NCBI RefSeq assembly: GCF_009914755.1
Contig: NC_060943.1
Length of the DNA: 64,000 nt
Direction: 5' to 3' (one strand)
Source: the human T2T-CHM13v2.0 reference genome, Homo sapiens
How positions within the stretch are numbered: the stretch's first letter is position 1; the number at the start of each line of letters is the position of its first letter. The translations under genes and the position numbers were made by a program. Of the stretch, positions 7,547-57,346 are shown in pieces. The notes beneath the pieces were generated by a model that saw only the letters and a list, made by a program, of their open reading frames with translations, had not been told where the DNA came from and did not search any database.

Positions 7547-7741
7547 CACCTCTCATCAGAGATCCACATCAGCTCATGCACCTGGCTCTGGTGCTGTCCC
7601 ACCTCAGGATCATTCCACTTTCTGCTGCAGGGCCTTGTCTGATTTCACAAAGACCTCTAGGTCCACACTAAGAGACAGCCCAGAGGTATGGGGTAGGTGT
7701 TTACAATGGAGGTGTTGACAGTCATCCTCATCGTGGAAGCC
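7547..7741 (+). repeat. ~195-bp direct duplicate of 8999-9192
   Basis: Colinear match including atgcacctggctctggtgctgtcccacctc and gacagcccagaggtatggggtaggtgtttacaatggaggtgttgaca; flanked by 13-bp direct repeat gtggaagccacct (7539-7551, 7733-7745). Confidence 0.95.
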
Positions 7742-9159
7742 ACCTTCTGACTCACTGCACCCATCCCAGCCATACCTCCTCATCCAGCGGCTATATGTCG
7801 ATTTGTCTCTCCCCTAATACAAGGCCCTGCCCTCCACCAGCAGAGCCAGACTGTCTGCCTGCAAGCCTGGCTTTTTATTCTGCTGCACTCAGAAATTACG
7901 CAAATCACAACTATTAGTATAACAGCTTCTGCAGAATTCACAAAGAAAAGGGAAAAAAAACACTGTCACAAAATCCCTGTGCTTGGTTAAAAGACCGTTA
8001 ATTTCCCCATTATCCTCACTCACTCTCTTGTTAATATGAGATGTGTGCATCTGAAGCCTGCTTTTCAGTCATATGAACATCTATAAAAGAGACATCAGTC
8101 AGCAGAAACCTCTGGAACTGCAACATGAAAGAGAATGAGGGAAAAGCCCAACTCCAGCTAGGGTGGAGAAGAGAAGAAAGGCGAGATGTGGGAGGTGGCC
8201 CTGGAAGGCCTGGGCGGGGGTCTCTAGAGGAACCTGGGAAGACTCTGGTGTGGGACAAAGCTCCAGATGGACTCTGAGCACTCTCGCTGTCCTGGAGGAC
8301 AGCTGTCTCACTGTTCTGGAGGGCCTCATTCCCCTTCTCATTCATCTCACTCACCATGCTAGAAGCCTCCCAAGGGCAAGAGCTGCACACCTGCACACCT
8401 GCGCCCCATCCCCTCCACAGCCCTGAGCAATGAGCAGGCACAGAGCCAGGGCCCGGGGAGGCCATGGAGAAATTGAGCTCCTTTGCTTGCCATCATTTCA
8501 GAGAGACCACAGTAGTCTTATTCCCTGTGAATGGATTGAGTTTCTTCTATCAATCAGGGTCCCCAAAGGAACAGGTGGCACATGGACATCAGAGGATTCA
8601 ATAACCTGACAATTTGCAAAGATTTCGGCGGAACAGTGACAGCAGAGATGAAGGAGCACATGATCCCAGGTGCTCAGAAGGAGGAAGCTGCCTCGAGAGC
8701 AGGGACTCAGTCAGCCCGAGCAACCCAGCAGGGAGGACGCAGGAGGAATCAAGGCCCTGTCTCCCTCCTCACTCCGTCTGCCTTCCTCCCAAGGGCCCCC
8801 TGGGAGCTGAGGGAGTAGAGGCAAGTTAGCCACCTGGGCCATGCCTCCAGGTCCCCTCCTGAGGCACAGAGCAAGGCAGAAAAGCTTCTGGGCCAGGCTC
8901 TGGCAGCACCAGTTGGATTTCCTCTGTAAGATGAAGACAATGGTCCTGGGAGAGCACAGCTGACCACCTAGCACCCTGGGCCATGTCACCTTCCAGCTCA
9001 CCTCTCATCTGAGGTCCACACCAGCTTATGCACCTGGCTCTGGTGCTGTCCCACCTCGTGATCATTCCACTTTCTGCTGTGAGGCTCTGTCTGATTTCAC
9101 AAGAGAACTCTAGGTCCACAATAAGACAGCCCAGAGGTATGGGGTAGGTGTTTACAATG

Positions 9160-12100
9160 GAGGTGTTGACAATCATTCTCATCGTGCAAGCCTGGGCATT
9201 CAGAGGCATTCATATTAGGCCTAGCCCAGGTGTTCACAGCCATTCTCATCAGGGCCAGCCCAGGTGTCGCTGCTATCCTCACTAGGCCCACCTCAGATGT
9301 TCACAACTGACCTCATTGGGCCCATGCAGGTGTTCATAGCCATCCTCATCAGGACGAGCCCAGGGTTCATAGCTGCCCTCACCGAGGTTTGTTTATATTT
9401 TCATATAACATTGTGAAAAACTGGCTTGGGGCCACTGAGTATAGCTGTGATCACCTGAGTTTGGCCCAATGAGGACAGCTGTGAACACCTGTGCTAGGCC
9501 CAATGAGGACAGCTATGAACATCTGGGCTGGGCCCCAAGACTACAGCTGTGCTTATTGGACCCTGATCTGGTGCTCTTAGCCATCTTCATTGAGACCAGC
9601 CTAGGTGTTCACAGCTTTTCTCATTGGGTCCAGCCCAGTTGTTCATAGCTATTCTCATCAGGGTCAGCCCAGGTATTCACAGCTGGCCATGGAGCTCAGC
9701 CAAGTTGTTCACAGCTGTCCTCATGAGACCCAGCCTGGTGTTTACCACCCCCTCCCTGAGTTCAGCCCAGTTTTTTACATCCATCTTCACTGGGGCCAGC
9801 CCAGGTATTCACAGCTGTCCTCATTGTGCCAAGCCAAGGTATTCACAGCTGTCCTCATGGGGGCCAGGTGAGGTACTCACAGCTGTTCCTTTCAAGGCCA
9901 ACCCAGGTGTTTACTGCTGTCCTCATTGTGTCCAGCCCAGGTGTTCATAACTGTCCTCATGGGGTTCAGGTGAGGTGTTCACAGTGATGCTCTTTGGAGC
10001 CAGCCAAGGTGTTCACAGCCATCCACATTGGCTTCATCCAAGATGTTCATAGCCATCCTTATTGGAGCCAGTGAGTTTGTTCACACCCATGCTAATACGT
10101 GTCAACCAAGGTATTATAGCTACACTCATCTGGGTGAGCCAAGGTGTTCACTGCTATCCTCACTGGGGCCCAGCCCAGGTGTTAATAGTTGTCCTTATGG
10201 GCCCAGCCCAGGAGTTTATATTGGTTCTCATCAGGGCAAGTCCGGGTGTTCAGTGCCATCCTATTGGGCCCTGACCTGGTATTCAGAGCCATCCTCACTA
10301 CTCCAGCCCAGGTATTCACAGTCGTTCTCATCAGGGCCTTGTACGTGTGCTCATAGTTGTCATCATTAGGTGTTTATGGGTAAGTCCAGGTGTTCAGAGC
10401 CATCCTATTAGGCCCAGTTTAGGTGTTCAGAATCATCCTTGTGGTGCCTAGCCTAGAAGTTCCCAGCTGTAATTATCATAGTCAGCCAGGGTTTCCACAG
10501 TCATCCTCATCAGGAACAGCCGTGGTGTTCACATCCATGCTCACTGGGCCTAGTTAAGGTATTAGAACCATCTTAATCATCAGGGCCAGATCAGGTGGTA
10601 ATGGCAGTTCTCTTTAGTGCCAGCCCAGTTATTCATAGCCATTCTCATTGGAACCAGATAATCTGTTCACAAACATTCTCACTGGGGCCAGCCAAATTAT
10701 GATAGCCATCCTCATCAGGGCCAGCTCATCTGTTCACAGCTGTCTTCACCGGGGGCAGCATAGGTGTTCACAGCCATCCTCAATGGGTCCAGCCAAGGTT
10801 TTCACAGCTGTCCTGATTGGGCCCACCCCAGAGGTTCACAGCTGTCATCATAGGACCCAGCAAAGAAGTACACAGCTGTTCTCATTGAGCTCAGCCCAGG
10901 TGGGCCAGTGCCAATTAGTGTGACTATAATACCTTGCCTGGACCCAACTAGCATGGGCAGGAGCAAATTGGCTGACCCCAGTGAGGATGGCTATGAACAT
11001 CTGGGTTGGTGGCAGTGTGGAAAAATATGAATATCTTGGCTGGCCCCAAAGAGAACCACCGTAAACATCTAGACAGGCCAAAATGAGGAAGTTTTGAAGA
11101 CAGCCATGAACTCCTGGGCTGGCTACGATGAGGACAGTTGTGAACAACTGAGCTGGGCCAAATTAGGACAGCTGTAAACACTCATGCTAGGCTCAATGAG
11201 GACAGCAGTGAACACCTATGGTGGCCAATGAGGTCAGATGTGAACAACTGGGTTGGCCCAATAAGGACAACAGTGAACACTTGGCTTATCCGCATGAGGA
11301 CAGCTTGGAACATCCGAGCTGATCTTGATAAGGACTACTGTGAATACATAGACTGAACCCAATAACAACAGCTATTAACACCTTGACTAGTTCCCTATGA
11401 GAACCACTGTGGACACCTGGGCTTGCCCCCAATGAAGATAGCTATGAACACTTGGGCTGACCTCAATGATGACAACTGTGAACACCTTTGCTGGCACTGA
11501 TGAGGACCATTGTGAACATGTTGGCTTGCAGTAATGAGGACAGATATGAACGCCTAGGCTGGACCCAGTGGAAAGAGAAGTGAACACCTAAGCTGACCCA
11601 ACAATGAAAATTGTGAAAAACTGGCTTGGAGCCACTGAGGATAGCTGTGGTCACCTGAGTTTGGCCCAATGAGGACAGCTGTGAACACCTGGGCTAGGCC
11701 CAATGAGGACAGCTATGAACATCTGGGCTGGTCCCCAAGACTACAGCTTTGAACAAATGGGCCGACCTTGATGAAGATGGCTGTGTACACCTGGGGTAGG
11801 CCCAGTGAGGACAGCAATTAACACTTGGGCTTTGCCTGTATGAAGTAAACTGTGAACACTTGTGCTGACTCCAATGAGCCTGGCTGGGAAGACCTGAACT
11901 GGCCCCAATGAGGATGGCTATAATACCTTGGCTGGGCCCAGTGAACATAGATGTGAACACTTAGGCAGGCCCTGATGAGGAGCACTGTGAACACCTAGGC
12001 TGGTCCTAATTAGGAAAACTGGGAACACTTGGGCAGGGCCCAGTGAGAATGGGCTATACTCAGTGATGAAAACTGTGAAGAACTGGCCTGGATCCCGTGA

Positions 12101-13954
12101 GGACGAATATGAACACTTGAGCGTGGACCAGTGAGAAAGGCTTTGAACACCTGGGATGGCCACAATGATGATGGCTGTGAACACCTTGGCTGGCCTCAGC
12201 GAGTGTTGCTATAATAGCTTGGCTGGCCCCAATTAACATGGGTGTGAACAAATAGGCTGGACCTAATGAGGATGGCTGTTAACACCTCAGGTGTCTCAGT
12301 TGAGGATCACTGTGAACACCTGAGCAGGCTCAGATGAAAATAGCTATGAACACCTAGGCTGGTCCTGATGAAGACAGCTAGGAACACCTGGGTGAGGCCC
12401 AGTGAGGATAGCTATTAACACCTGGCTGGCTTTCATGAGGATGGCTGTGAGCACCTGGTCTGGCCACTATTAAACAGTCTCTGGACACCTAAGCTGGGCC
12501 CAATGAGGACAGCTATTAACACCTGGGCTGGCCCAATAATGACCGTTGTGAACACTAACCCAGATAAGGATGGCTATGAAAATTTGGGCTGGCATCTAGG
12601 TAGATGGCTGTGACCTCCCAGGCTGGCCCCAGTGAGGATGGTTCTAATTCTTTAGCTGGCCTAAAAGAGCATGGATGTGAACACCTGGGCTGGTCCTAAT
12701 GAAGACAACTATGAATACCTAGGATAACCCCCAATAAAAACAGCTGGGAACACCTGGGATGGCCTTCATTAGGAAGTCTCCAACACCTGGACTGGGCCTA
12801 ATAGGATGGCTCTGAACACCTGGACTTGCCCTGGTGAGGACCTCTGTAATCACAGTGCTGGGCCCAATGAGGACAACTATTAACACCTGGTCTGAAAACT
12901 GGTGAGGAGTGCTCTGAACACTTAGGCTGAACCTGAGGAGGATGGCTGTAAACACCTGACCTGACCTCAATGAGGATAGCTGTGTAAAACTGGGATTGAC
13001 CTAGTGAGGACAGCTGTGAACACGTAGACTGATCCTACTGGGGACAATGGTGAACATCTAGGCTAAGCCCAATGAAGATAGCTCTGAATACCTGGACATG
13101 GCTCCTATGAGATAAAGTGCAAATGCCTGGGCTTGCCCAATGTGGACAGCTATGAATACCTAGGCTGAGCTCAATTATGAAAGCTGTGAACACATGGGCT
13201 TGGTCCAGTGAGGACAGTGGTGAACACTCAGGCTGGCCCTCATGAGGACAGCTGTGAACACTTTGTCTGGGCCCCATGAGAACAGCAGTGAATACCTGGG
13301 CTGGCCAAAATAAGGTAAAACAACTGAGCTAAACCCAATGAGAATGGCTGTGAACACCTAGGCTAGACACCAAGAAAATAGCTTTGAACACATGAGCTGA
13401 GCTCCATTAGGACACCTGTGAATACTTGGCCTGGCACCAGTGAAAACAGCTATGAACAATTGGGCTAGGCTCAGTGAGGATGGCTATAAACACCTATGCT
13501 GAACTCCATGAGATCAGCTGTGAACACCTGGCTATAATACCTTGGCTGGCCCCAATTAGCATGAGGGTGAACACATTGGCTGGCCCCAAGAAGAATGACT
13601 ATGAACACCTGAACTGGCACCATGTGAATGGCTGTGACCACCTGGGCTGGCACCAATGAAAACAGCTGTGAACAACTGAGCTAGGCCCAATATGAATGGC
13701 TCTGAACACCCAGGCTTGCACAATAAGGATGACTATCAACACCTCCATTAGCCCCAATGAGGATGGCTGTTAACACCTGGGCTGGTTCTGATAAGGACAA
13801 CTGTGAACACCCAGCATGAGCCCAATAAGAACAGTGGTGAACACTTAGGCTAGGCCAAATAAGGTCAGCCGTTAAAACCTGGGCTGGCCACAGCAAGGAT
13901 GGCTGTGAAAACCTGAGCTGGACCCAAAGGAAACACCTATGAAAAACTGGGTTG
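9160..13954. repeat. 34-bp satellite array, left part (mixed orientation)
   Basis: Diverged tandem copies of CCCAGGTGTTCACAGCTGTCCTCATTGGGCCCAG. Orientation + ~9160-9385, - 9410-9550, + 9551-10905, - ~10920-13954. Confidence 0.95.
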
Positions 13955-14290
13955 TGGGGTAGCTGGCAAGATGGCCGAAGAGGAACAATTCCAGTCTGCA
14001 GCTCCCAGTGAGATCGACACAGATGACAGATGATTCCTTCATTTCCAACTGAGGTACCCAGTTCATCTCATTGGTACTCGTTGGACAGTGGGTACAGCCC
14101 ATGGAAGGCAAGCCAAAGCAGGGTGGGGTGTTGCTTCATCTGGGAAGTGCAACGGGTCAGGGGATTTCCCTTTCCTAGCCATGGGAAGCCTTGAGAGACT
14201 GACTGTACCAGGAGGAATGGTGCATTCCGGCCTGGATACTGCACTTTTCCCGCAGTCCTCAAAACCAGCAGACCAGGAGATTCTCTCCTG

Positions 14291-14781
14291 GCTGTTTTCA
14301 TTAGGGGTTATGCTAGGTATTCATAGTTGTCTTCACTGGGACCAGCCCAGGTGTTCACATCCATGCTCTTTTAGGCCAGCTAAAGAATTAGAACCATCCT
14401 CACTGGGGCCAGCCTGGGAGGTCACAGCCATCTACCTAGATGCCAGCCCAAATGTTCATAGCCATCCTTATCTGGGTTAGTGTTCACAACGGTCATTATT
14501 GGGCCAGCCCAGGTGTTAATAGCTGTCCTCATTGGGCCCAGCTTAGGTGTCCAGAGACTGTTTAATAGTGGCCAGACCAGGTGCTCACAGCCATCCTCAT
14601 GAAAGCCAGCCAGGTGTTAATAGCTATCCTCACTGGGCCTCACCCAGGTGTTCCTAGCTGTCTTCATCAGGACCAGCCTAGGTGTTCATAGCTATTTTCA
14701 TCTGAGCCTGCTCAGGTGTTCACAGTGATCCTCAACTGAGACACCTGAGGTGTTAACAGCCATCCTCATTGGGTCCAGCCT
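14291..14781 (+). repeat. Satellite segment inserted in the L1 5'UTR; inverted copy of 12254-12744
   Basis: Reverse complement aligns ungapped to 12254-12744 with 7 mismatches in 491 bp (manual count); L1 5'UTR resumes at gcctggttcagtggg. Confidence 0.95.
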
Positions 14782-15459
14782 GGTTCAGTGGGTTCTACCC
14801 CAACAGAGCTCAACAAGCTAAGATCCACTGGCTTGAAATTCTCACTGCTCCACAGCAGTTTGAGGTCAACCTGGGATGCTTGAGCTTAGTGGGGGGAGGG
14901 GCATCCATCATTGCTGAGGCTTGAGTAGGCGGTTTTACCCTCACAGTGTAAACAAAGCTGCCGGGAAGTTCAAACTGGGCGGAGCCCACTGCAGCTCCCT
15001 GGGACAAAACACCTGTGGGAAGACTGTGGGTACAGCTTCAACCGACTTAAACGTCCCTGCCTGACAGCTCTGAAGAAAGCAGCAGTTCTCCCAGTACAGC
15101 GTTCAAGCTCTGATAAGGGACAGACTGCCTCCTCAAGTGGGTCCCTGACCTCCAATGTGTCCAGACTGGGAGATACCTCCCAGTAGGGGCTGACAGACAC
15201 CTCATACAGGAGCGCTCTAACTGATATCTAGGGGGTGCCCCTCTGGGATGAAGCTTCCAGAGGTAGGAACAGGGAGCAATCTTTGTTCTGCAGCCTCCAC
15301 TGGTGATACCCAGGAAAACAGAGTCTGGAGTGGACCTCTGGCAAACTCCAACAGACCTGCAGCAGAGGGGCCTGACTGTTAGAAGGAAAACTAACAAACA
15401 GAAAGGAATAATATCAACATCAACAACATCAAAGACGAAAGGTAGATAAATCCACGAAG

Positions 15460-16484
15460 ATGACGAGAAACCAACACAAAAAGGCTGAAAATTCCAAAAA
15501 CCAGAACGCCTCTTCTCCTCCAAAGTATCATAACTCCTCACCAGCAAGGGAACAAAACTGGACAAATAATAAGTTTGACGAATTGACAGAAGTAGGCTTC
15601 AGAAGGTGGTTAATAATAAACTCCTTTGAGCTAAAGAAGCATGTTCTAACCCAATGCAAAGAAGCTAAGAACCTGGATAAAAGTTTGGATGAGTTGCTAA
15701 CTAGAATAACCAGCTTACAGAAGAACATAAATGACCTGATGGAGCTGAAAAACACAGCACAAAAACTTCTTGAAGCATACACAAGTATCAGTAGCTGAAC
15801 TGATCAAGTGGAAGAAAGGATATCAGAGATTGAAGATCAACTCAATGAAATAAAGTTAGAAGACAAGATTAGAGAAAAAAGAGTGAAAAGAAATGAACAA
15901 AGACTCCAAGAAATATGGACAATGTGCAAAGACCAAATCTACATTTGATTGGTGCACCTGAAAGTGACGAGGAGAATGGAACCAAGTTGGAAAACACTCT
16001 TCAGGATATTATCCAGGAGAACTTCCTCAACCTAGCAAGGCAGACCAACATTCAAATTCAGGAAATACGGAGAACACCACAAAGATATTCCTCGAAAAGA
16101 GCAGCCCCAAGACACATAATTGTCAGGTTCACCAAGGTTGAAATGAAGAAAAAAATGTTAAAGGCAACCTGAGAGAAAGGTTGAGTTACCCACAAAGGGA
16201 TGCCAATCAGACTAACAGCTGATCTGTTGGCAGAAACCCTACAAGCCAGAAGACAGTGAGGGGAAAATTTTCAACATTCTTAAAGAAAAGAATTTTCAAC
16301 TGAGAATTTCATATCCAGCCAAACTAAGCTCCGTAAGTGAAGGAGAAATAAAATCCTTTCAGACAAGCAAATGCTGAGAGATTTTGTCACCACCAGGCCT
16401 GCCTTACAAGAGCTCCTGAAGGAAGCACTAAACATGGAAAAGAACAACCGGTACCAGCCACTGCAAAAACATACCAAATTGTAA
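15460..16484 (+). pseudogene. L1 ORF1p remnant (stops/frameshifts)
   Basis: ORF-track pieces MTRNQHKKAENSKNQ... and ...ENGTKLENTLQDIIQENF...; broken into fragments. Confidence 0.9.
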
Positions 16485-16547
16485 AAAGCATCAACACTAT
16501 GAAGAAACTTCATCAACTAGTGGGCAAAATAACCAGCTAGCATCATA

Positions 16548-17583
16548 ATGACAGGACCAAATTCACACATAACAATATTAACCTTAAATGTAAATGGGCC
16601 AAATGCCCAAAGACACGGACTGGGAAATTGAATAAAGAGGCAAGACCAATTGGTGTGCCCATCTCACATGCAAAGACACAAATAGGCTCAAAATAAAGGA
16701 ATGGAGGAAGATTTACCAAGAAAATGGAAGGAAAAAAAAATTAAGGGTTGCAATCCTAGTCTCTGATAAAACAGACCGTAAACCAACAAAGATCAAAAAA
16801 TACAAAGAAGGGCATTACATAATGGTAAAGAGATCAATGCAGCAAGAAGAGCTAACTATCCTAAATATATATGCACCCAATACAGGAGCACCCAGATTCA
16901 TAAAGCAAGTTCTTAAAGACCTACAAAAAGCTGGAGAGGATGTGGAGAAATAGGAATACTTTTACACTGTTGGTGGGACTATAAACTAGTTCAACCATTG
17001 TGGAAGTCAGTGTGGCGATTCCTCAGGGATCTAGAACTAGAAATACCATTTGACCCAGCCATCCCATTACTGGGTATATACCCAAAGGACTATAAATCAT
17101 GCTGCTGTAAAGACACATGCACATGTATGTTTATTGCGGCATTATTCACAATAGCAAAGACTTGGAACCAACCCAAATGTCCAACAATTATAGACTGGAT
17201 GAAGAAAATGTGGCACGTATACACCATGGAATACTATGCAGCCATAAAAAATGATGAGTTCATGTCCTTTGTAGGGACATGGATGAAATTGGAAACCATC
17301 ATTCTCAGTAAACTATCGCAAGAACAAAAAACCAAACACCGCATATTCTCACTCATAGGTGGGAATTGAACAATGAGATCACATGGACACAGGAAGGGGA
17401 ACATCACACTCTGGGGACTGTTGTGGGGTGGGGAGAGGGGGGAGGGATAGCATTGGGAGATATACCTAATGCTAGATGACGAGTTAGGGGGTGCAGCACA
17501 CCAGCATGGCACATGTATACATATGTAACTAACCTGCACAATGTGCACATGTACCCTAAAACTTAAAGTATAATAATAAAAAA

Positions 17584-17614
<31 letters not shown>

Positions 17615-20600
17615 AAAAGACCTACAAAGAGACTTAGACGTCTGCAAAATAATAGTGGGAGACTTTTACACCCCACTGTCAATATTGGACATATTAACGA
17701 GACAGAAAATTAGCAAGGATATTCAGGACTTGAACTCAGCTCTGGACCAAGTGGACCTAATAGACATCTGCAGAACTCTCCACTCGAAATCAACAGAATA
17801 TACATTTTTTTCAGCACCAAATCACACTTATTCTAAAATTGACCAAGTAATTGGAAGTAAAACACTCCTCAGCAAATGCAAAAGAATGGAAATCATAACA
17901 GTCTCTCAGACCACAGTGCAATCAAATTAAAACTCAGGATTAAGAAATTCACTCAAAACCACACAACTACATGGAAACTGAACAACCTGCTCCTGAATGA
18001 CTACTGGGTAAATAATGAAATGAAGGCAGAAATAAAGATGTTCTTTGAAACCAATGAGAATAAGACACAACATACCAGAATCTCTGGGACACATTTAAAG
18101 CAGTGTGTGAGGGAAATTTATAGCACTAAATGCCCACAAGAAAAAGCAGGAAAGATCTGAAATTGTCACCCTAACGTCAAAATTAAAAGAAGTAGACAAG
18201 CAAGCGCAAACAATTTCAAAAGCTAGTAGAGGACAAGAAATAACTAAGATCAGAGCAGAACTGAAGGAGATAGATACACGAAAAACCCTTCAAAAAATCA
18301 ACGAATCCAGGAGCTGGTTTTTTGAAAAGATCAACAAAATACAGAGACTGCTAAGCAGACTAATAAAGAAGAAAAGAGAGAAGAATCAAATAGATGCAAT
18401 AAAAAATGATAAATGAGATATCACCACCAATCTGACAAAAATACAAACTACCATCAGAGAATACTATAAACACCTCTATGCGAAAAACTAGAAAATCTAG
18501 AAGAAATGGATAAATTCCTGGACACATACACCCTCCCAAGACTAAACCAGGAAGAAGTAGAATCCCTGAATAGATCAATAACAAGTTCTGAAATTGAGGC
18601 AGTAATTAACAGCCTACCAACCAAAAAAAAGCCCAGGACCAGATGGATTCACAGCCGAATTCTACCAAGGGTACAAAGAGGAGCTAGTACCATTGCTTCT
18701 GAAACTATTCCACACAATAGAAAAAGAAGGAATCCTCCCTAAACTCATTTTATGAGGCCAGCATCATCCTGATACCAAAACCTGGCAGAGATACAACAAA
18801 AATAAAGGAAAATTTCAGGCCCATATCCTTGATGAACATCAATGCGAAAATCCTCAATCAAATATTGGCAAACCCAATTCAGCAGCACATCAAAAAGGTT
18901 ATCCACCATGATCAAGTGGGCTTCATCCCTGGGATACAAAGCTGGTTCAACATATGCAAATCAATAAACGTAATCCATCACATAAACAGAACTAATTACA
19001 AAAACCACATAATTATCTCAATAGATGCAGAAAAGGCCTTTGACAAAATTCAACAGCCCTTCATGCTAAAAACTCTCAATAAACTAGGTATTGATGGAAA
19101 GTATCTCAAAATAATAAGAGCTATTTATGACAAACCTACAGCTAATATCATACTGAATAGGCAAAAACTGGAAGCATTCCCTTTGAAAACTGACACAAGA
19201 CAAGGACGCCCTCTCTCACTTCTCCTTTTCAACATAGTATTGGAATTTCTGGCCAGGGCAGTCAGACAAGAGAAAGAAATAAAGGGTATTCAAACAGGAA
19301 GAGAGGAAGCATATTATCTCTGTTTGCAGATGACATGATTGTATATTTAGAAAACCCCATTGTCTCAGCCCAAATCTCCTTAAGCTGATAAGCAACTTCA
19401 GCAAAGTCTCAGGATACAAAATCAATGTGCAAAAATCACAAACACTCCTATACACAAATAACAGACAAACAGAGAGCCAAATCATGAGTGAATTCCAGTT
19501 CACAATTGCTACAAAGAGAATAAAAAACCTAGGAATACAACTTACAAGGGATGTGAAGGACCTCTTCAAGGAGAACTACAAACCACTGCTCAAGGAAATA
19601 AAAGAGGACACAAACAAATGGAAAATCATTCCATGCTCATGGATAAGAAGAAACAATATCGTGAAAATGTCCATCCTGCCCAAAATAATTTATAGATTTA
19701 ATGCTATCTCCATCAAACTACCATTGACTTTCTTCACAGAATTGGAAAAAAACTACTTTAAACTTCATATGGAACCAAAACAGAGCCCACATAGCTAAGA
19801 CAATTCTAAGCAAAAACAACAAAACTGGAGGCATCATCCTACCTGACTTTATACTACAAGGCTACAGTAACCAAAAGAGCATGGTACTGGTACCAAAACA
19901 GATATATAGACCAATGGAACAAAACAGAGGCCTCAAAAATAACACCACACATCTACAACCATCTGATCTTTGAAAAATCTGACAAAAACAAGCAATGGGG
20001 AAAGAATTCCCTATTTAATAGATGGTGTTGGGAACACTGGAATGCAGAAAGCTGAAACTGGATCCCTTCCTTACACCTTATACAAAAATTTATTCAAGAT
20101 GGATTAAAGACTTAAACATAAAACCTAAAACCATAAAAACCCTCGAAGAAAACCTGGCCAGTACCTTTCAGGACACAGGCATTGGCAAAGCCTTCATGAC
20201 TAAAACACCAAGGGCAATGGCAACTAAAGCCAAAATTGACGAATAGAATCTAATTAAACTAAAGAGCTTCTGCACAGCAAATGAAACTATCATCAGAGTG
20301 AACAGGAAACTTACAGAATGGGAGAAAATTTTTGAAATCTATCCATCTGACAAAGGACTCATATCCAGAATTTACAAATAACTTAAATTTACAAGAAAAA
20401 AAACAAACATCCTCATCAAAAAGTGGGCAAAGGATATGAACAGGCATTTCTCAAAAGAAGACATTTATGCAGCCAACAAACATGAAAAAATGCTCATCAT
20501 CAATGGTCATTAGAGAAATGCAAATCAAAACCACAATGGGATATCATCTTGTGCCAGTTAGAATGGCGATCGTTAAAAAGTCAGGAAACAACAGATGCTG

Positions 20601-21046
20601 GAGAGGATGTGGAGAAATAGGAATGCTTTTACACTGTTAGTGGGAGTGTAAATTAGTTCAACCATTGTGGAAGACAATCTTTGTTGTTCTGCAGCCTCCA
20701 CTGGTGGCCATTCCTCAAGGATCTAGAACTAGAAATACCATTTGACCCAGCCATCCCATTACTGGGTATATACCCAAAGGATTATAACTCATTCTACTGT
20801 AAAGACACATGCACATGTATGTTTATTGCAGCACTGTTCACAATAGCAAAGACTTGAAACCAACCCAAATGCCCATCAATGATAGACTGGATAAAGAAAA
20901 TGTGGCACATATACACTGTGGAATACTATACAGCCATAAAAAGGGTGAGTTCATGTCCTTTGCAGGGACATGGATAAAGCTGGAAACCATCATTCTCAGC
21001 AAACTAACACAAGAACAAAAAACCAAATACTGCAAGTGGGAATTGA
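16548..21046 (+). pseudogene. L1 ORF2p remnant (EN/RT), fragmented and interrupted by a nested L1
   Basis: Fragments such as [23 protein letters not shown] and a frameshifted FADD motif near 19322-19337. Confidence 0.9.
16931..17615 (+). mobile_element. 5'-truncated young L1 (L1PA2-like) nested in ORF2 of the older L1
   Basis: 3'UTR variants attgggagatatacctaatgctagatgacgag and gagatcacatgg; (TAAA)n tail; TSD aaagacctacaaa(a/g)ag at 16915-16930 and 17616-17631. Confidence 0.9.
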
Positions 21047-21246
21047 ACAACAAGAACACATGGACACAGGGAGGGGAACATTATGCACTGAGGCCTGTGG
21101 GGGGGTGGGGGGTGAGGGGAGGGATAGCATTAGGTGAAATACCTAATGTAGATGACAGGTTGATGGGTACAGCACATTCTGCACATGTACCCCAGAACTT
21201 AAAACAAACAAACAAATGAATAAACAAACAAAAAAAAACTGGGTTG

Positions 21247-24200
21247 GACACAAGGAGGATGGCTGAGAACACCTGAGCTGGCCCTGATGAGAATGGATGT
21301 GATCACCTGGGCTGCCCTGATGAGGGTGGCCCTACGATATTGGCTGCACCCATTGAGCATGAATGTGAACACCTAGGTTGTCCCTGACAAGGACCACAGT
21401 GAACACCTAAGCTGCCCCCGATAAGGAAAGCCTGGTCTGGCCCCCATGAGGAAGGCTTTGATCACCTAGGAAAGGCACAATAGGATGGTTGTGAACACCT
21501 GAAGTTGCCCTGAGATGGACCTCTATACAACTATGTTTATAGTCATGAAAACATGTGAACTATAAACATGTGAACTGGGTCAGAGAAGTATCACGGTGAA
21601 CACTTAGGCTGGACCCAGTGAGGAGAGCTATGAACCCCTGGCCTGGCACAATGAGAATGTCTATGAAAACCTGGGCTTTGCCCAGAGAGGACGGCTGTGA
21701 AAACCTGGATTGACCCCTAAGAAGAGGCTTGGAACATGTTGGCTGGCCTGCTTGAAGGCGGCTATGATACCTTGGCCAGCCCTAATTTCCATAGCTGTGA
21801 ACAGGAGGACTGGCCCTGATGAGGATGGCTATGAACATTTGGGATGGTGATAATGTGGATTGTTGTGATGGGCTGAGCTGGCTCAAGTGAGGACCACTGT
21901 GAACACCTGCAAAGGCCCAGATAAGAACAGCTATGAAAACCTGGGATGCTCCCAGTGGAGACAGCTATGAACACCTGGGCTGGGCTGAGTGTGGACAACA
22001 GTGAAGACCTGGGTTAGCTCAGATGAGGACAGCTATGAATACCCTGCCAGGCCCCGATGAGGGTGACCTTAATACCTTGATTGACACCAGTGATCCACAT
22101 TAGGACAGCTGTGAACACTTGTGCTGGACCCAATAACTACATCAGTGAACATTTCTTGGGGCTGGACCAGATGAGGACAATTGTGGACACCTGGGCTGGG
22201 CTCAAAAGAATAACTGTATATTAGGGCTGGGTATAACAAAGACAGCTTTGAACATGTGGGCTGTACCCTATGAGGAGAGCTTTGAACACCTGGACTGACA
22301 CCTATTAGAATAGCTGTGAATACCTCCACTGGGACTAGGTCTCTATATGAACTACTTTGTACACCTGTCCTGGCCCAATGAAAATAGCACTAAACATTTA
22401 CATTGGCCCTCATGAAGAGATCTTTGAACACCTGGGCTTTCTCTGATGATGATGGCTGTGAACACCTGGGCCATCCTCACTGGGCACAGCCAAGTTTTTC
22501 ATAGCTGTCCTAACTGAACCCAGCCTAGGTGTTCACAGCTGTCATCATTGGGTGTAACCTGGGTGTTCACATCTACCCTTATTTGGGCCTAGCCCAGGTA
22601 TTCTAGGTTTCCTCATTGGGCCCAGCACAAACATACACAACTATGGTTGTGGGCCCAGCCCTGGTATTCATAGCCATTGACATCGGGGCCAGCCCAGGTG
22701 TACATGACCATTCTTTCCAGGGCCAGCTAAGGTGTTCATGGCTGTCCTCATGGGGCCAGCCCAGGTGTTCACAGCTGTTCTCATAGGTCCTATCCCAAGT
22801 ATTCACTGCTGTTCTAATGCGGCCTAGTCCAGGTGTTCACTGCTGCCCTCATTGTACCCAGCCCACATGATCACAGATGTCCTAATAGGGCCCAGCCCAG
22901 GTATTCACTCTAAAACCTGGCCAGGGCCCAATGAGGACAGCTGTGTTCATCTAGGCTGGGCCCCATGAAGGCAGCCTGGAACCCCTGGCTTGACCCAGGG
23001 AGGATTGCTGTGAACACCTGGGCTGCCCCAATGAGGGTGGCTATACTATAGGTTGGCTGGCCCCAAAGATCATGGCTGTGAACACATTGGCTGATCCTGA
23101 TGGGGATGGCTATGAACACCTGGGCTCAGCCCAATGAAGATGACGACAAACACCTTGGCTGGCCCCAATGAGAATGACAATGAACAATTTCCTGGGCCAA
23201 AGGAGGACAGCTGTGAACACATGAGGTTGGCCCAATGTGGACAGGAGTGAATACCTGGTTGTCCTAGATGGGGACAGCTGTGAACACCTAGGCTTGCCCA
23301 CATTAGGACAGCTATGAACACCTGGGATGGGCCCAGTGACACTAGCAGTGAATTCCTCAGCTGGATTTGACAAGGATGGTTATCAACACCTGGACTGGCC
23401 CCAACCTAGATGGCTATGAACACCTGGGCATGGCCCAAAAGCTTAACTGAGTACATCTGGCCTGGGCACAATGAGGAAAACTTTGAAACATCTGGGCTGG
23501 TCCCTGTGAGGACAGATTTGAACATTTGGACTTACCCTGATGAGGACAGCTGTGAATACTTTGACTGGCCCTGAAGAGAACAGCCATGAACACCTGGCCT
23601 GGGCCCAAGGAGAACAGCTATGAGAAAACCTGTGACTGGCCAAGAAAGGACCACTGTGAACACCTTGCCTGGTTTCACTGAGGGTGGTATCCTATTTGGG
23701 CTGGCCCCAATTAGCATGAGTGTGAACAAATTGGCTGGCTCCACTAAGAATTGCTATGAACATCTGAGCTGGTGCTAATGTGGACAGCTGTAACCACCTG
23801 GATTGGCCCCACTGAGGACCAAATGTACATTTATCCTTTTGGGCCCAGCCCAAGTGTTCATAGCCACCTAAGCTGAGGCTACCCCAGGTGTTCATAACCA
23901 TCCTCATCAGGTCCAGCCCCTTGAGGTGTTCACTGCTATAGTCATTGGGTCCAGCCCAGGTGTTCATAGCCGTCCTAATGTGGACAGGCCCAGGTGTTCA
24001 CAGCTGTTCTCATCTGGGACAGCCAGGTATTCACTCCTATTCACATTGGGTCAACCTCAAGTGTTTACAGCTGTCCTCTTTGGACCCAGGAAATTGTTCA
24101 TTGCCATTCTCATTGGAGCTTCCCAGATATTCAAAGCCATTCTCATCAAGGCATATCTGGTTTTTAAAGCTGTCTGCATTGGCCCTGACAAAGTATTCAC

Positions 24201-27200
24201 AGCTTTTAAAATATTGGCCAGTGCAGGTGTTCACAGCTGTCCTCATTAGAGCCAGCACAGGTTCTTACAGCCATCCTCATCCGAGCCAGCCCAGGAATTT
24301 TCAGTCCTTCACATGGGGACCCAGTCCAGTGTTTAATAGTTGTCCTCACTGGGCTGAGCCCAGATGTTCACAGCCATCCAAATACTCATTAGGGCAAGTC
24401 CAGATGTTCAGGGCCATCCTATTCGGCCCTGCCCTGGTGTTCAGAGACATCCTCACTGGCCCAGCCCAGGTCTTCACAGTCGTTATCGTAGGGGACTTGT
24501 ACATGTGTTCATAGCTATCATCATTAGGTGTTTATAGTGGTTTTCATCTGGGTGAGTCCAGGTGTTCAGCACTATCCTATTGGGCCCAGTTCAGGTGTTC
24601 AGAACCATCCTCAAGATGGCTACCTTAGGTGTTCCCAGCTATACTTACCATGGCCAGCCTGGGTTTCCACAGTCATCCTTATCAGGAACACCCCTGGTGT
24701 TCACATCCATGCTCACTGGGCCTAGCCAAGGCATTAGTGCCATCTTCATCATTGAGGCCTGACCAGGTATTAGGGCAGTTTATTTTAGTGCCAGCCCAGG
24801 TATTCATAGCGATTCTTATCGGGACCAGCCAATGTGTTTACAGACCTCCTCATTGGGACCAGCCAAATTATTATAGCCACCCTGATCAAGGCCAGCCAAT
24901 TTGTTCACAGCCATTCTTCTCAGGGTCAGCCAACTTGTTTACAGCTGTCCAATGGGCAACCTAGGTGTTCACAGCTGTCCTCATTGTGCCCAGCCAAGAT
25001 TTTTATAGTTGCCCTGATTGGGCCCACCCCAGAAGGTCACAGCTATCATCATAAGACCCAGCTCAGATGTACACAGCTGTTCTCATTGGGCTCAGCCCAG
25101 GTGGGCCAGTGCCAATGAGTGTGACTATAATACCTTACCTGGACCCAATTAGCACGGGCAGGAACAAATTGGCTGATCCCAGTGAGGATGGCTATGAACA
25201 TCTGGGTTGGTGGCAGTGTGGAAAAATATGAATATCTTGGCTGGCCCCAAAGAGAACCACTGTAAACATCTGGGCAGGTCTAGAAGAGGAAAGCTCTGAA
25301 GACAGCCATGAACTCCTGGGCTGGCTATGATGAGGACAGTTGTGAACAACTGAGCTGGACCAAATTAGGACAGCTGTAGACACTCATGCTAGGCTCAGTG
25401 AGGACAGCAGTGAACACCTATGGTGGCCAGTGAGGTCAGATGTGAACACCTGGGCTGGCCCAATAAAGAAAATAATAAACACATAGGCTTGTTCCCATGA
25501 GGGCAGCTTTGAACACCTGAGCTGATCTTGTTGAGGACAACTGTGAACACATAGGCTAAGCCGTATAACGACAGCTATTAACACCTTGACTAGGCCCCTG
25601 TGAGAACCACTGTGCCACTGTGAACACCAGGGCTAGCGCCAATGAGGATGGCTATGAACACTTGGGCTGACCTTGATGATGACAACTGTGAATGGTACCA
25701 ACTTTGCTGGCACTGATGTGGACCACTGAAAACATGTCAGCTTGTAGTGATGACAGATGTGAATGCCTAGGCTGGGCCCATTAAAGAGATCAGTGAACAC
25801 CTAAGCTGACCCAGTGATGAAAGCTTTGAACACTTGGCCTGAGGCCAATCAGGATAGCTGTGATCACCTGAGTGATCGCAATGAGTACAAAGCTGCCCAA
25901 TGAGCACAGCTTTGAACAACTGGGTTGACCTTGATAAGGATGGCTGTGCATACCTGGGCTGGGCCCAGTAAGGCATCAATTAACACCTGGGCTTTGCCTA
26001 TATGAAGACAACTGTGAATACTTGTGCTGGCTCTCATGAGCGTGGCTGGGAACGCCTGAACTGGCTCTGATGAGGACGGCTACAATACCTTGGCTGGGCC
26101 CTGTGAGCATAGATGTGAACACTTGAGCAGGCCCTGATGAGGACCACTGTGAACATCTAGGCTGGCCCTGATTAGGAAAGGTGGAAACACCTGGGCTGGG
26201 CCCAGTGAGGATGACTGTGAACATTTAGGCTGTACCCAATGAGGATAGCTGTGAAGAACTGGCCTGGGTCCCATGAGGACAGGTAAGAATGCCTGGGCTT
26301 GGCCCTGTGAGGACAGCTTTGAACACCTGAGACAGCCCAGATGATGATGGCAGTGAACACCTTGGCTGGTCCCAGTGAGTGTTGCTATAATAGCTTGGCT
26401 ATACCCGATTAGCGTAAGTGGGAACATATAGGCTGGACCCAATGAGGATGGCTATGAACAACTTAGCTAGGCCCAATGAGGATGGCTGTCAACTCCTCAG
26501 CTGGCTCTGATGAGGACCACTGTGAACATTTGGGCAGGCCCAGATGAAAATAGCTATGAACACCTACGCTAGTCCTGATGAAGACAGCTAGGAACACCTG
26601 GGTGAGGCCCAGTGAGGACAGATATGAAACCTGGGCTTGCTCTCATGAGGATGGCTGTGAGCACCTGGTCTGGCCACTATTAAACAGTCTCTGAACACCT
26701 AAGCTGGGCCCAGTAAGGACAGCTATTAACATCTGTGCTGCCCAATGATGACAGCCGTGAACACTAAGCCAGATAAGGATGGCTAGGAACATTTGGGGTG
26801 GCATCAAGGTAGATGGCTGTGACCAGCCAGGCTGGCCCTGATAAGGATGGCTCTAATTCCTTGGCTGGCCCAAATGAGCATAGATGTGAACACCTGGGCT
26901 GGTCCCAATGAAGACAACTGTGAATACCTAGGATAGGCCCGATAAAAACAGCTGGGAACACCTGGGATGGCCTTCATTAGGATGTCTCCAACACCTGGAC
27001 TGGGCCCAATAGGATGGCTCTGAACACCTGGACTTGCCCTGATGGGAACCTCTGTAACCACAGTGCTGGGCCCAATGAGGACAGCTATTAACATCTGGTC
27101 TGAAAACTAGTGAAGAGTGCTCTGAACACTTAGGCTGGACCTGATGAGGATGGCTGTGAACACCTGACCTGACCTCAATGAGGGCAGCCATGTAAAACTC

Positions 27201-27345
27201 GGACTGGCCTAGTGAGTACGGCTGTGAATGCCTGGGCTGATCCTGATGAGGACGACAGTGAACATGTAGGCTAAGCCCCATGAATACAGCTCTGAAAACC
27301 TGGACATTGCTCCTATGAAAATGATTGTGAACTCCCGGGCAGGCC
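21247..27345. repeat. 34-bp satellite array, right part (mixed orientation)
   Basis: Same monomer. Orientation - 21247-22470, + 22471-22909, - 22910-23820, + ~23833-25105, - ~25120-27345. Confidence 0.95.
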
Positions 27346-50120: not shown

Positions 50121-52395
50121 ATTTATAACTTAGGAAAACATAATGAATGAGTTATTTACACACCAATAACCCAGAGGAACTGCTGGAGAATTATACTGGT
50201 AAAAAAGCTAACCATCAAAAGCTATATGCTGTACAATTCCATATATGTAACATTCTTTAAAAAAATAACAAAATGAAGAAGCAATTAGTGATTTCCAGAA
50301 GTTAATGAAGGTGTGGAGGTGGGAGGGAAGTGTGTGTGGCTAGAAAGAGCAACATGACTGATTGTTGTGTTGATTTACGATTCTGCATCTTGTAATATCA
50401 ACGCTAATATCCTGGGAGTGCTGTCCTTCTATAGTTTCACAAGGTGTTACCATTGGCAAAAACTGGGTAAATGGTACACAGAATTTCTGTATTATTTCTT
50501 GCACAGTATGTACATCTACAACTATCTCAAAAAATGTTCAATTTGTAAAAAGTAGCTGCAGAATGTACATGACATCCCTAGGTGAAGGTGACCTATTTAT
50601 AATAGCATTACATGTATAAATCCCTAGGAATGGATTTAGTAAGAATATGAAAAAAGTATATAGCTTTATTACTGAATAAAGGGAATTCTGTCCTCGTTAG
50701 GATACTCAGTAGAGTAAATATAAGAAAATTTCCTGAGGTAAACCTAAAAATTCCACCACAAACCCAGTCATAATCATAATATATTTCTTTATGAAACTCT
50801 AGACACTCAATCTTAGGTTTCTTCAAAGGAATAAATGCCCATTAGTAGCCTGAAATACTCTGAGGAAGAAATGAGAAGTGAAACATGGCTGATAGTAAAA
50901 TATAGTGTAAATTTACAGTGATCAAAGAGAACTACATCCTAGTAGGAAGAGACAAGTAAATCAACACAACAAAGTAGTCTCCAGCAATGCACACAGGGAG
51001 ATTTTGTTGACTGTAAAGGTGATCTTACAGGAAAAAGAGGAATGAACAGACTATTTGACAACTTACTGTCTAAGTGGAAAGACAATAAAAGGATAAATGT
51101 CCATCTTACATAAAGTGTTCTCTAAATTAAAAATATAATACATTGGCATAAAATACAACATACTGGTAAATGATACATACAACCAGTTTATAGAAGGAAA
51201 GCAAATAGCCGATAAACATAAAAAGATACCCAACCTCACCAATAATTAAGGAAATATAACTCAAAACAACATTCACTTGTCAGATTGACAAATGCTTAAA
51301 ATATGTAAATACTTAACTATCCAAAATATTAATATCCAGGGTTGGAATAGAAATGATTGAAATGGAGGGGGCGTGCAGCCAAGATGGCAGAATAGGAACA
51401 GCTCCAGTCTACAGCTCCCAGCGTGAGCAACGCAGAAGATGGGTGATTTCTGCATTTCCAACTGAGGTACCCGGTTCATCTCACTGGGGAGTGCCAGACA
51501 GTGGGTGCAGGACAGTGGGTGCAGCGCACCGTGCATGAGCCAAAGCAGGGCAAGGCATCACGTCACCCGGGAAGTGCAAGGGGTCAGGGAATTCCCTTTC
51601 CTAGTCAAAGAAAGGGGTGACAGACGGCACCTGGAAAATTGGGTCACTCCCACCCTAATACTGTGCTTTTCCAATGGGCTTATCAAACGGCACGTCAGGA
51701 GATTATATCCTGCACCTGGCTCCGAGGGTCCTACGTCCATGGAGCCTCGCTCATTGCTAGCACAGCACCCTGAGATCAAACTGCAAGGCAGCAGCGAGGC
51801 TGGGGGAGGGCCCCCCGCCATTGCTCAGGCTTGAGTAGGTAAACAAAGCTGCTGGGAAGCTCGAACTGGGTGGAGCCCATCACAGCTCAAGGAGGCCTGT
51901 CTGCTTCTGTGGCTCCACCTCTGGGGGCAGGGCACAGTCAAACAAAAGACAACAATAACCTCTGCAGACTTAAATGTCCCTGTCTGACAGCTTTGAAGAA
52001 AATAGTGGTTCTCCCAGCATGCAGCTGGAGATCTGAGAACAGGCAGACTGCCTCCTCAAGTGGGTCCCTGACCCCCGAGTAGCCTAACTGGGAGGCACTC
52101 CCCAGTAGGGGTGGACTGACACCTCACACGGCCGGGTACTCCTATGAGACAAAACTTCCAGAGGAACGATCAGGCAGCAGCATTTGCAGTTCACCAATAT
52201 CTGCTGTTCTGCAGCCTCCAACTGCTGATACCCAGGCAAACAGGGTCTGGAGGGGACCTCCAGTAAACTCCAACAGACCTGCAGCTGAGGGTCCTGACTG
52301 TTAGAAGGAAAACTAACAAACACAAAGGACATCCACACCAAAAACCATCTGTACGTCACCATCATCAAAGACCAAAGGTAGATAAAACCACAAAG

Positions 52396-53410: not shown

Positions 53411-53449
53411 AGACCATCAAGGCTAGGAAGAAACTGCATCAACTAATGA

Positions 53450-56989
<3,540 letters not shown>

Positions 56990-57346
56990 ACAATGAGAAC
57001 ACATGGACACAGGAAGGGGAACATCAAACACCGGGGACTGTTGTGGGGTGGGGGAGGGGGGAGGGATAGCATTAGGTGATATACGTAATGCTAAATGACG
57101 AGTTAATGGGTGCAGCACACCAACATGGCACATGTATACATATGTAACAACCCTGCACATTGTGCACATGTACCCTAAAACTTAAAGTATAATAATAATA
57201 AAAAATAAAAAAATAAAAAATAAATAAATAATCAAGGCTTTTACAGAAAAAAAAAAGAAATGTTTGAAATGATTATTGCCAGAAGCACTTGGTGGGAATA
57301 TGAATGGGAACTGCTTTTTTTTTTTTTTTTTATGATAATTTAGTTG

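What the first reader, a model, noticed from the sequence alone, without database searches (positions are those of the whole stretch)
12254..14781. Near-perfect 491-bp inverted repeat: satellite DNA copied into an old L1 5'UTR and apparently kept homogenised
Seen: 14291-14781 interrupts the L1 5'UTR and is the ungapped reverse complement of 12254-12744 (spacer 1546 bp). I count 7 mismatches: 5 in the inner ~55 bp, 1 near the outer end, and only 1 in the ~430-bp core. The right junction shares gcct with both donor and L1. The other paralog of this segment (~26430-26950) and neighbouring monomers are far more diverged. Inference: an older insertion whose core was later homogenised by arm-to-arm gene conversion or recurrent inversion, which would make the spacer (containing the L1 5' end and TSS) a flippable cassette.
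Basis: partly seen in the sequence, partly recalled or inferred. Interest (0 to 1): 0.85.

Follow-up and report, generated by a model that had tools for sequence, protein, structure and literature searches.

The report
Inverted satellite copy inside old L1
A 491-base piece of the neighbouring satellite DNA was copied backwards into the start of an old, dead L1 element, creating a real near-perfect inverted repeat of a known, ordinary kind, and one genome cannot tell whether it is simply young or kept alike by copying between its arms.

Summary

The left arm is the donor. It lies inside an older direct paralogy, 9787-13110 ~ 23942-27318, that runs through its inner boundary. The right arm is the copy. 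In 3 of the 5 other L1 copies compared (L012-L014) the L1 5'UTR is continuous across the site. At most one L1 base is missing, there is no target-site duplication, and GCCT is shared at the right junction.

With the third paralog (26466-26957, 89%) as outgroup, 3 changes lie on the donor and are spread out. Three or four lie on the copy, all within 46 nt of the inner junction. The clustering is non-random.

This fits a single young template-switch or repair-synthesis insertion with errors at one junction. It fits about as well an insertion as old as the L1 whose core was homogenised by arm-to-arm conversion. I cannot separate the two with one genome. The spacer is in its ancestral orientation here. 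It is a known kind of event, and interest is low to moderate.

The parts
12254..12744 (+). Left arm, the donor: 491 nt of a 34-nt-period satellite in its native context
   Evidence: The older paralogy with 24672-27318 runs through it and past its inner boundary at about 90% identity.
14291..14781 (-). Right arm, the inverted copy of the left arm, inserted in the L1 5'UTR
   Evidence: 7 mismatches, no gap. L1 homology stops at 14286-14291 and resumes at 14773-14782 in 4 of the 5 other L1 copies (L011-L014; at 14841 in L010). In L012-L014 the two parts abut.
12745..14290 (.). Spacer of 1546 nt: satellite 12745-13941, the L1 target-site duplication, and the first 336 nt of the L1. It is in ancestral orientation in this assembly.
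   Evidence: The satellite is collinear with the paralog to 13110. The L1 5' end is collinear with the rest of the L1 and with its target-site duplication.
14291..14338 (-). Inner-junction mismatch cluster: 5 of the 7 arm differences, at right-arm positions 14299, 14303, 14312, 14336 and 14338
   Evidence: Polarised: 14299, 14312 and 14336 are derived in the copy, 14303 is ambiguous, and 14338 pairs with a change derived in the donor. Clustering P = 0.0056 for any 48-nt window and 0.00026 for a terminal window.
14778..14781 (+). GCCT shared by the satellite donor end and the L1: a 4-nt microhomology at the right junction
   Evidence: alignment of both flanks with L1 copies L010, L012, L013 and L014.
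14273..14291 (+). Short quasi-palindrome in the L1 5'UTR (8-bp stem, 3-nt loop) that ends exactly at the left breakpoint
   Evidence: -7.9 kcal/mol, z = -3.6, 1 of 200 shuffles folds as well. Seven of the 8 pairs are L1 sequence, also present in copy L010.
13955..21238 (+). Full-length old L1 with broken reading frames. It carries the 491-nt satellite insert and a nested younger L1 3' fragment.
   Evidence: The terminal branch is about 5.2-5.8%.
13942..13954 (+). L1 target-site duplication, left copy (AAAAACTGGGTTG)
   Evidence: Read directly.
21234..21246 (+). L1 target-site duplication, right copy, after the poly-A
26466..26957 (+). Third paralog of the arm segment (88.6-89%), used as outgroup

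Best explanation
The right arm is a one-off inverted templated insertion. A nascent or broken 3' end in the L1 5'UTR sat at the foot of a small hairpin. It switched template to the satellite 1.5 kb upstream on the same chromosome and copied 487-491 nt in reverse-complement orientation. It then returned to almost exactly the base it had left, using GCCT. One L1 base at most was lost, and there was no target-site duplication. This is FoSTeS/MMBIR-like template switching, or synthesis-dependent break repair.

On this reading the arms are alike mainly because the event is young relative to the L1. The 3-4 copy-only changes next to the inner junction are errors made during the event.

Shown: which arm is donor and which is copy, the clean junctions, the microhomology, and the polarity and clustering of the changes. 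Inferred: the enzymology, the direction of synthesis, and that the cluster arose at the event.

The confidence of 0.45 is for the whole statement, including 'young, with no long-term homogenisation'. The origin by local inverted templated copying alone I would put near 0.9.
For: 1. Donor versus copy. The left arm lies in a 2.7-kb direct paralogy (10500-13110 ~ 24672-27318, 82% including indels, 86-93% in ungapped bins) that continues past the inner arm boundary. The right arm is flanked on both sides by L1 sequence that is contiguous in 3 of the 5 other L1 copies compared (L012-L014; L010 and L011 differ downstream of the site).

2. Junctions. L1 ends at 14290 and resumes with GCCT, which is shared with the donor. 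At most one base is missing, and there is no target-site duplication and no poly-A.

3. The breakpoint abuts an 8-bp-stem hairpin.

4. Polarisation with paralog P. The donor-derived changes at 12264, 12581 and 12697 are spread along the arm. The copy-derived changes at 12699, 12723 and 12736, plus the ambiguous 12732, span 38 nt next to the inner junction. There are none in the other ~445 nt. P = 0.016 for 3 changes and 0.0014 for 4.

5. No other donor explains the copy's inner end. Genome-wide, the 65-nt query gives 3 matches: itself, the left arm at 92% and P at 87%. Within the window the next best 46-mer has 14 mismatches against 4 for the left arm.

6. Dating. Without the cluster the arms differ at 3 of 491 sites (0.61%). 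With it they differ by 1.43%. The L1's own branch is ~5.4%.

7. A second local patch copy exists in the same array: 9407-9551, copied from 11607-11751. So short templated patches recur here.

8. Literature, passages read. Template switching makes inverted copies of nearby sequence. BIR/MMBIR-type replicative repair is described as error-prone with induced point mutations (citing Carvalho 2013, which I could not read).
Against: - The event is bigger and further from its template than the described short-range classes. The longest template-switch mutation in the 2022 preprint is 318 bp. The MMB-TI search only considers templates within 100 bp.
- The left junction has no clean microhomology: 3 matching bases sit offset by 2 nt.
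- Four substitutions in 38 nt is a heavy load for a single synthesis event. I saw no quantitative precedent in the passages I read.
- The cluster has 3 transitions and 1 transversion, which looks like ordinary time-dependent mutation.
- After the event the copy would have gained 0 changes against 3 in the donor (one-sided P = 0.125).
- The inner-edge divergence of 10.4% equals twice the L1 branch, which the rival explains neatly.
- Polarisation rests on one outgroup that is 11% diverged.
Confidence: 0.45

Rival explanations
1. The inverted copy is old, possibly made when the L1 integrated, for instance by fold-back of the second-strand primer on resected upstream DNA. The core has since been kept alike by arm-to-arm gene conversion, possibly with inversions of the spacer. 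The inner 48 nt escaped conversion and kept diverging.
For: Mismatches are concentrated at an edge of the homology. The inner 48 nt are 10.4% diverged (95% interval 3.4-24%), which matches twice the L1 terminal branch of ~5.2-5.8%. Overall polarity is balanced, with 3 donor-derived and 3-4 copy-derived changes. The spectrum in the cluster is ordinary. Perfect tracts of 316 and 115 nt would support homologous exchange. Arm-to-arm conversion is well documented for large palindromes (abstracts listed).
Against: The point estimate needs the insertion to be as old as the L1 and the inner edge never to have been converted. The outer edge shows no comparable decay: 1 mismatch in 48 nt against 5 (binomial P = 0.22, so this is weak). 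No conversion tract, swapped variant or inverted spacer can be seen in one genome. The older 145-nt patch in the same array has 7 evenly spread mismatches and no homogenised core.
Confidence: 0.37
2. A free DNA fragment, or a reverse-transcribed satellite transcript, was captured by end joining at a break in the L1. It was not copied in place by template switching.
For: The left junction has no microhomology and one L1 base is missing, as in end joining.
Against: The donor is only 1.5 kb away on the same chromosome and is the only close match in the genome. Capture of a free fragment does not predict that. There is no poly-A and no target-site duplication. The right junction uses 4 nt of microhomology.
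Confidence: 0.07
3. The first or last ~46 nt of the copy were templated by a different donor that is now lost or changed, such as another monomer or another allele of the left arm. The cluster would then be inherited difference rather than error or age.
For: Repeated template switching is a described property of break-induced replication (title and abstract of PMC9701231, listed). The array is full of similar monomers.
Against: No present-day sequence matches the copy's inner end better than the left arm, either in the genome (3 matches) or in the window.
Confidence: 0.06
4. Assembly artefact, such as a chimeric or fold-back read.
For: None found. Raw reads cannot be examined here.
Against: The arms differ at 7 sites and are separated by 1546 nt of collinear sequence. 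Both junctions fall at defined L1 bases, with the L1 otherwise intact. The whole structure of ~2.5 kb fits inside single long reads (general knowledge, not tested).
Confidence: 0.03

Closest known systems
Template-switch mutations and FoSTeS/MMBIR-type templated insertions (Loytynoja & Goldman 2017; Loytynoja 2022 preprint; Osia et al. 2021)
   Same: A reverse-complement copy of nearby sequence on the same chromosome. The donor is retained. The switch returns to almost the point of departure. There is microhomology at one junction, no target-site duplication, and a new inverted repeat results (passages).
   Different: It is longer (491 nt) and further from its template (1546 nt) than the short-range events catalogued: longest 318 bp, templates within 100 bp. 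One junction lacks microhomology.
Palindromes and inverted repeats kept alike by arm-to-arm gene conversion (Y and X chromosome palindromes)
   Same: Two inverted arms with a short spacer, very high identity in the core, and differences at an edge (abstracts).
   Different: The arms are 0.5 kb rather than tens of kb or more. Conversion is not demonstrated here. There is no gene content. The identity can be explained by youth alone.
Inversions mediated by flanking inverted repeats (NAHR, 'inversion toggling')
   Same: Flanking inverted repeats of 200 nt or more at high identity are the stated substrate. 132 of 183 sequence-resolved balanced inversions have them. Here the arms are 491 nt at 98.6%.
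   Different: Only one orientation, the ancestral one, is seen. No population data were available.
L1 twin priming (5' inverted L1 insertions)
   Same: An inverted segment near the 5' end of an L1, and a small size class.
   Different: The inverted segment is satellite, not L1. The L1 itself is collinear and full length, with an intact target-site duplication.

Membership tests
Local inverted templated insertion (template switch / MMBIR-type) | The insert is the reverse complement of nearby sequence on the same molecule | tested here: met
   491 nt, 7 mismatches, no gap, donor 1546 nt away.
Local inverted templated insertion (template switch / MMBIR-type) | The donor is retained in its native context, and the recipient site is otherwise intact with no target-site duplication or poly-A | tested here: met
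   The donor lies inside the older paralogy. The L1 is contiguous across the site in 3 of the 5 other copies compared (L012-L014), with at most 1 base missing.
Local inverted templated insertion (template switch / MMBIR-type) | Microhomology at the switch points | tested here: inconclusive
   There are 4 nt (GCCT) at the right junction. There is none at the left junction, only 3 matching bases offset by 2 nt.
Local inverted templated insertion (template switch / MMBIR-type) | Size and distance of the catalogued short-range class (tens to a few hundred nt) | tested here: not met
   491 nt copied from 1546 nt away, against a longest event of 318 bp and templates within 100 bp. It works like the class but lies outside its surveyed range.
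Local inverted templated insertion (template switch / MMBIR-type) | The ancestral state without the insert is seen in an outgroup or another haplotype | not testable with these tools
   Only this one human genome is held.
Inverted repeat under arm-to-arm gene conversion | Arms are more alike within a species than orthologous arms are between species | not testable with these tools
   No ape or other human assemblies are available.
Inverted repeat under arm-to-arm gene conversion | Arm identity is higher than the age of the duplication allows | tested here: inconclusive
   The core has 1 mismatch in 432 nt and the inner 48 nt have 5. The L1 branch of ~5.4% sets the maximum age. The age of the insertion itself is unknown.
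NAHR-mediated recurrent inversion | Flanking inverted repeats of 200 nt or more at high identity | tested here: met
   (perfect tracts of 316 and 115 nt).
NAHR-mediated recurrent inversion | Both orientations of the spacer are observed | not testable with these tools
   This assembly shows the ancestral orientation only.
L1 twin priming | The inverted segment is L1 sequence at the 5' end of the insertion | tested here: not met
   The inverted segment is satellite. The L1 is collinear.

The most novel reading that the evidence does not exclude
The inverted copy was made at or near the moment the L1 integrated, about 5% divergence ago. It would be a fold-back template switch during integration or repair. 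Its 0.44-kb core has since evolved in concert by arm-to-arm conversion while one edge eroded. The 1.5-kb spacer that carries the L1's first 336 nt can then flip by recombination between the arms, and both orientations may be present in human haplotypes.
Probability: 0.3. Interest if true: 0.45.

Novelty: new member of a known kind. Interest (0 to 1): 0.25.

Why it matters
It is a cleanly resolved example of a half-kilobase inverted templated insertion. Donor, recipient, both junctions and the polarity of every later change can all be read. It lies above the size range of the catalogued short-range template-switch events.

If ape and pangenome comparisons showed concerted evolution or spacer flipping, it would be a small autosomal, gene-free test case for how short an inverted repeat can be and still be homogenised. 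No gene is annotated in the window and the L1 is dead, so no functional consequence is expected. A published map counts 627,791 inverted repeat pairs of at least 200 bp and 80% identity in this assembly, so the category itself is commonplace.

Tried and rejected
- **Another donor for the copy's inner end.** I looked genome-wide (3 matches, the left arm best) and by ungapped scans of the window. None was found.
- **Twin priming or retrotransposition of the insert.** Rejected: the insert is satellite, with no target-site duplication or poly-A, and the L1 is collinear.
- **Conversion of the left arm by paralog P as the cause of the cluster.** Rejected: the left arm is not unusually P-like in the inner 48 nt (about 6 differences).
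- **Finding this pair in a published repeat map.** The one readable supplement of PMC11794170 holds summary statistics only. The strings 30578 and 30580 occur 0 times. Its PDFs and the full pair lists were not readable.
- **Inversion call sets.** I read passages of the main text of the inversion-landscape preprint.
- **Carvalho et al. 2013** is not held. It is cited only through PMC4352052.
- **Earlier findings of this scan** were not open.
- **Comparing edges.** The inner versus outer edge difference (5 versus 1 mismatch) is not significant (P = 0.22). It cannot decide between the models.

Full report
**1. The observation**

The repeat finder on 11000-16000 reports one outstanding inverted pair: arms 12254-12749 and 14286-14781, 496 nt, 98% complementary. 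The other 23 inverted pairs are 43-135 nt long and 70-86% complementary. They are the background similarity of a satellite with a 34-nt period.

A base-by-base ungapped comparison gives exactly 7 mismatches between 12254-12744 and the reverse complement of 14291-14781. They lie at 12264, 12581, 12697, 12699, 12723, 12732 and 12736. Beyond both ends the match falls to background. blastn agrees: 98.574%, 491 nt, 0 gaps. The spacer is 1546 nt.

Genome-wide, a search with the left arm lists 95 matches. Only three are close:
- the left arm itself;
- the right arm (99%);
- a third paralog at window 26466-26957 (89%).

All the others are 64-81% identical. They lie in this array or in arrays on contigs C5, C10 and C16.

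**2. Which arm is the original**

The left arm lies inside an older direct duplication of the array. 10500-13110 matches 24672-27318 at 82% over 2708 columns, and the match extends left to 9787 ~ 23942. In bins without monomer-sized indels the identity is 86-93%. It continues at about 90% straight through the inner arm boundary, from 12745 to about 13086. So the left arm is in its native context.

The right arm is not. The sequence on either side of it is L1 5'UTR. 13957-14290 matches other genomic L1 copies at 82-85%, with the matches reaching query positions 320-334 of 334 (40 scored of 4365 candidates). I compared the window with five of these copies.
- L1 homology stops at 14286-14291 in all five. 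It resumes at 14773-14780 in four (L011-L014) and at 14841 in L010.
- In three copies (L012, L013, L014) the two parts abut, within -4 to +4 nt.
- L011 has about 198 extra bases at that place, and L010 diverges downstream of the site.

**3. The junctions**

Intact copies read, in the words of L010, ...GATTCTCTCCTG-T-GCCTGG...
- The window has L1 up to ...CTCCTG at 14290, then the inverted satellite.
- L1 resumes with GCCT GGTTCAG.
- GCCT (14778-14781) is also the end of the donor segment, so it is a 4-nt microhomology.
- At most one L1 base is missing.
- There is no target-site duplication and no poly-A around the insert.
- The left junction has no clean microhomology. Three bases (14286-14288) match the donor, but they are separated from the junction by two L1 bases.
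- The L1 bases just before the breakpoint form a small hairpin with an 8-bp stem that ends exactly at the junction (z = -3.6; 1 of 200 shuffles folds as well).

**4. The host L1**

It is full length, from 13955 to the poly-A at 21238, and is flanked by a 13-nt target-site duplication at 13942-13954 and 21234-21246.

It carries a nested, younger, 5'-truncated L1 3' end at about 16931-17618. Without the two inserts it is about 6.1 kb long. Its reading frames are broken: the longest stop-free stretch is 205 codons.

I estimated its own branch length by the three-point method from pairwise distances to other genomic copies.

| Region | Terminal branch |
|---|---|
| ORF2 | 5.4% |
| Non-CpG sites, all three regions tested | 5.2-5.8% |
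| 5'UTR, all sites | 6.9-9.0% |

The copies used were among only 40 scored of 4365 and of 23,809 candidates, so they may not be the nearest relatives.

**5. Polarity of the seven differences**

I used the third paralog P as outgroup.
- At 12264, 12581 and 12697, P agrees with the right arm, so the donor changed. These three are spread along the arm.
- At 12699, 12723 and 12736, P agrees with the left arm, so the copy changed.
- Position 12732 falls on a gap in P and is ambiguous.

So the 3-4 copy-specific changes span 38 nt next to the inner junction. The remaining ~445 nt of the copy carry none.

The clustering is non-random:

| Test | P |
|---|---|
| 5 of 7 mismatches within any 48-nt window | 0.0056 |
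| 5 of 7 mismatches within a terminal 48-nt window | 0.00026 |
| 3 copy-derived changes within 38 nt | 0.016 |
| 4 copy-derived changes within 38 nt | 0.0014 |

No other sequence explains the copy's inner end. The 65-nt query 14286-14350 finds only itself, the left arm (92%) and P (87%) in the genome. Ungapped scans of the window give the left arm at 4 mismatches in 46 and nothing else under 14.

Caveat: the polarity rests on one outgroup that is about 11% diverged.

**6. Origin (well supported)**

An inverted copy of sequence 1.5 kb away was inserted with almost base-perfect return to the point of departure. It has microhomology at one junction and no transposition hallmarks. This is the footprint of template switching during replication or repair synthesis.

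Either of two routes would give the structure:
- A top-strand 3' end at 14290 copied the upstream top strand backwards and returned by GCCT.
- A bottom-strand end primed on the donor by GCCT, and its far end was joined without homology.

I cannot tell which occurred.

From the passages I read, short-range template switches create reverse-complement copies of nearby sequence, with the longest event 318 bp. MMBIR-type templated insertions are inverted copies of nearby templates flanked by microhomology, and that search was restricted to templates within 100 bp. This event works like these classes but is larger and more distant than their surveyed ranges.

Twin priming is excluded, because the inverted piece is satellite and the L1 is collinear.

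**7. Why the arms are so alike (not resolved)**

*Reading A, young event with junction errors.* Without the cluster the arms differ at 3 of 491 sites (0.61%, interval 0.13-1.79%). With it they differ by 1.43%. Per lineage that is roughly 6-13% of the L1's own branch. At a neutral rate of about 1e-9 per site per year, this would be a few million years. That rate is recalled and comes from no call. Replicative repair is described as error-prone with induced point mutations. The primary paper could not be read.

That equals about twice the L1 branch. On this reading the copy would date to about the time the L1 integrated, and that edge would never have been converted.

In favour of B:
- the overall polarity is balanced;
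- the substitution spectrum in the cluster is ordinary;
- an edge-decay pattern is what conversion would leave.

Against B:
- the point estimate is at the limit of what the L1's age allows;
- the outer edge shows no comparable decay (1 versus 5 mismatches in 48 nt, P = 0.22, so this is weak);
- the older 145-nt patch in the same array shows no homogenised core.

A rough likelihood comparison of my own, not a tool result, gives no clear winner. I put A at about 0.45 and B at about 0.37.

**8. The flippable cassette**

The perfect tracts of 316 and 115 nt and the 491-nt arms meet the criterion used in the inversion literature. Inverted repeats of at least 200 bp flank 132 of 183 sequence-resolved balanced inversions.

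In this assembly the spacer is in its ancestral orientation. The satellite is collinear with its paralog, and the L1 5' end is collinear with the rest of the L1 and next to its target-site duplication. Whether any haplotype carries the flipped state cannot be tested here. Because the L1 is long dead and no gene is annotated in the window, a flip would have no evident consequence.

**9. Artefact**

Seven differences between the arms, a 1.5-kb collinear spacer and two base-precise junctions all argue against a fold-back or chimeric-read artefact. Reads were not available.

**10. Verdict**

The feature is real. It is a satellite-derived inverted templated insertion into an old L1 5'UTR, and a new member of a known kind. 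The homogenisation claim is open. It can be decided by ape orthologs and pangenome haplotypes.

Noticed in passing
window 9407-9551 (source 11607-11751): A second short patch copy in the same array. 145 nt are 95.2% identical to a segment 2.2 kb away (7 evenly spread mismatches, no gap). The patch is in (+) orientation inside a (-) oriented satellite block, and it is preceded by about 22 nt of non-satellite filler at 9385-9406. Everything else between these blocks is 64-70% identical. This suggests an older templated patch insertion.
   Followed up: partly
window 9400-27320: The 34-nt satellite array switches orientation several times: (-) at 9554-10902, (+) at 10903-13941, (+) from 21247, mixed at 22000-24670, and (+) at 24672-27318. 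A block that includes one switch point is itself duplicated (9787-13110 ~ 23942-27318, 78-82% including indels). The same repeat forms arrays on contigs C5 (three places), C10 and C16 (two places). Its family name was not established here.
   Followed up: partly
window 16931-17618: A younger, 5'-truncated L1 3' end with an A-rich tail is nested in ORF2 of the host L1. It is 91.9% identical to the 3' end of the L1 at 51735-57273. The host's own 3' end is 83% identical to that element.
   Followed up: partly
window 7547-7741 and 8999-9192: A direct repeat of about 195 nt at 90.3% identity, just left of the satellite array. It was not examined.
   Followed up: no
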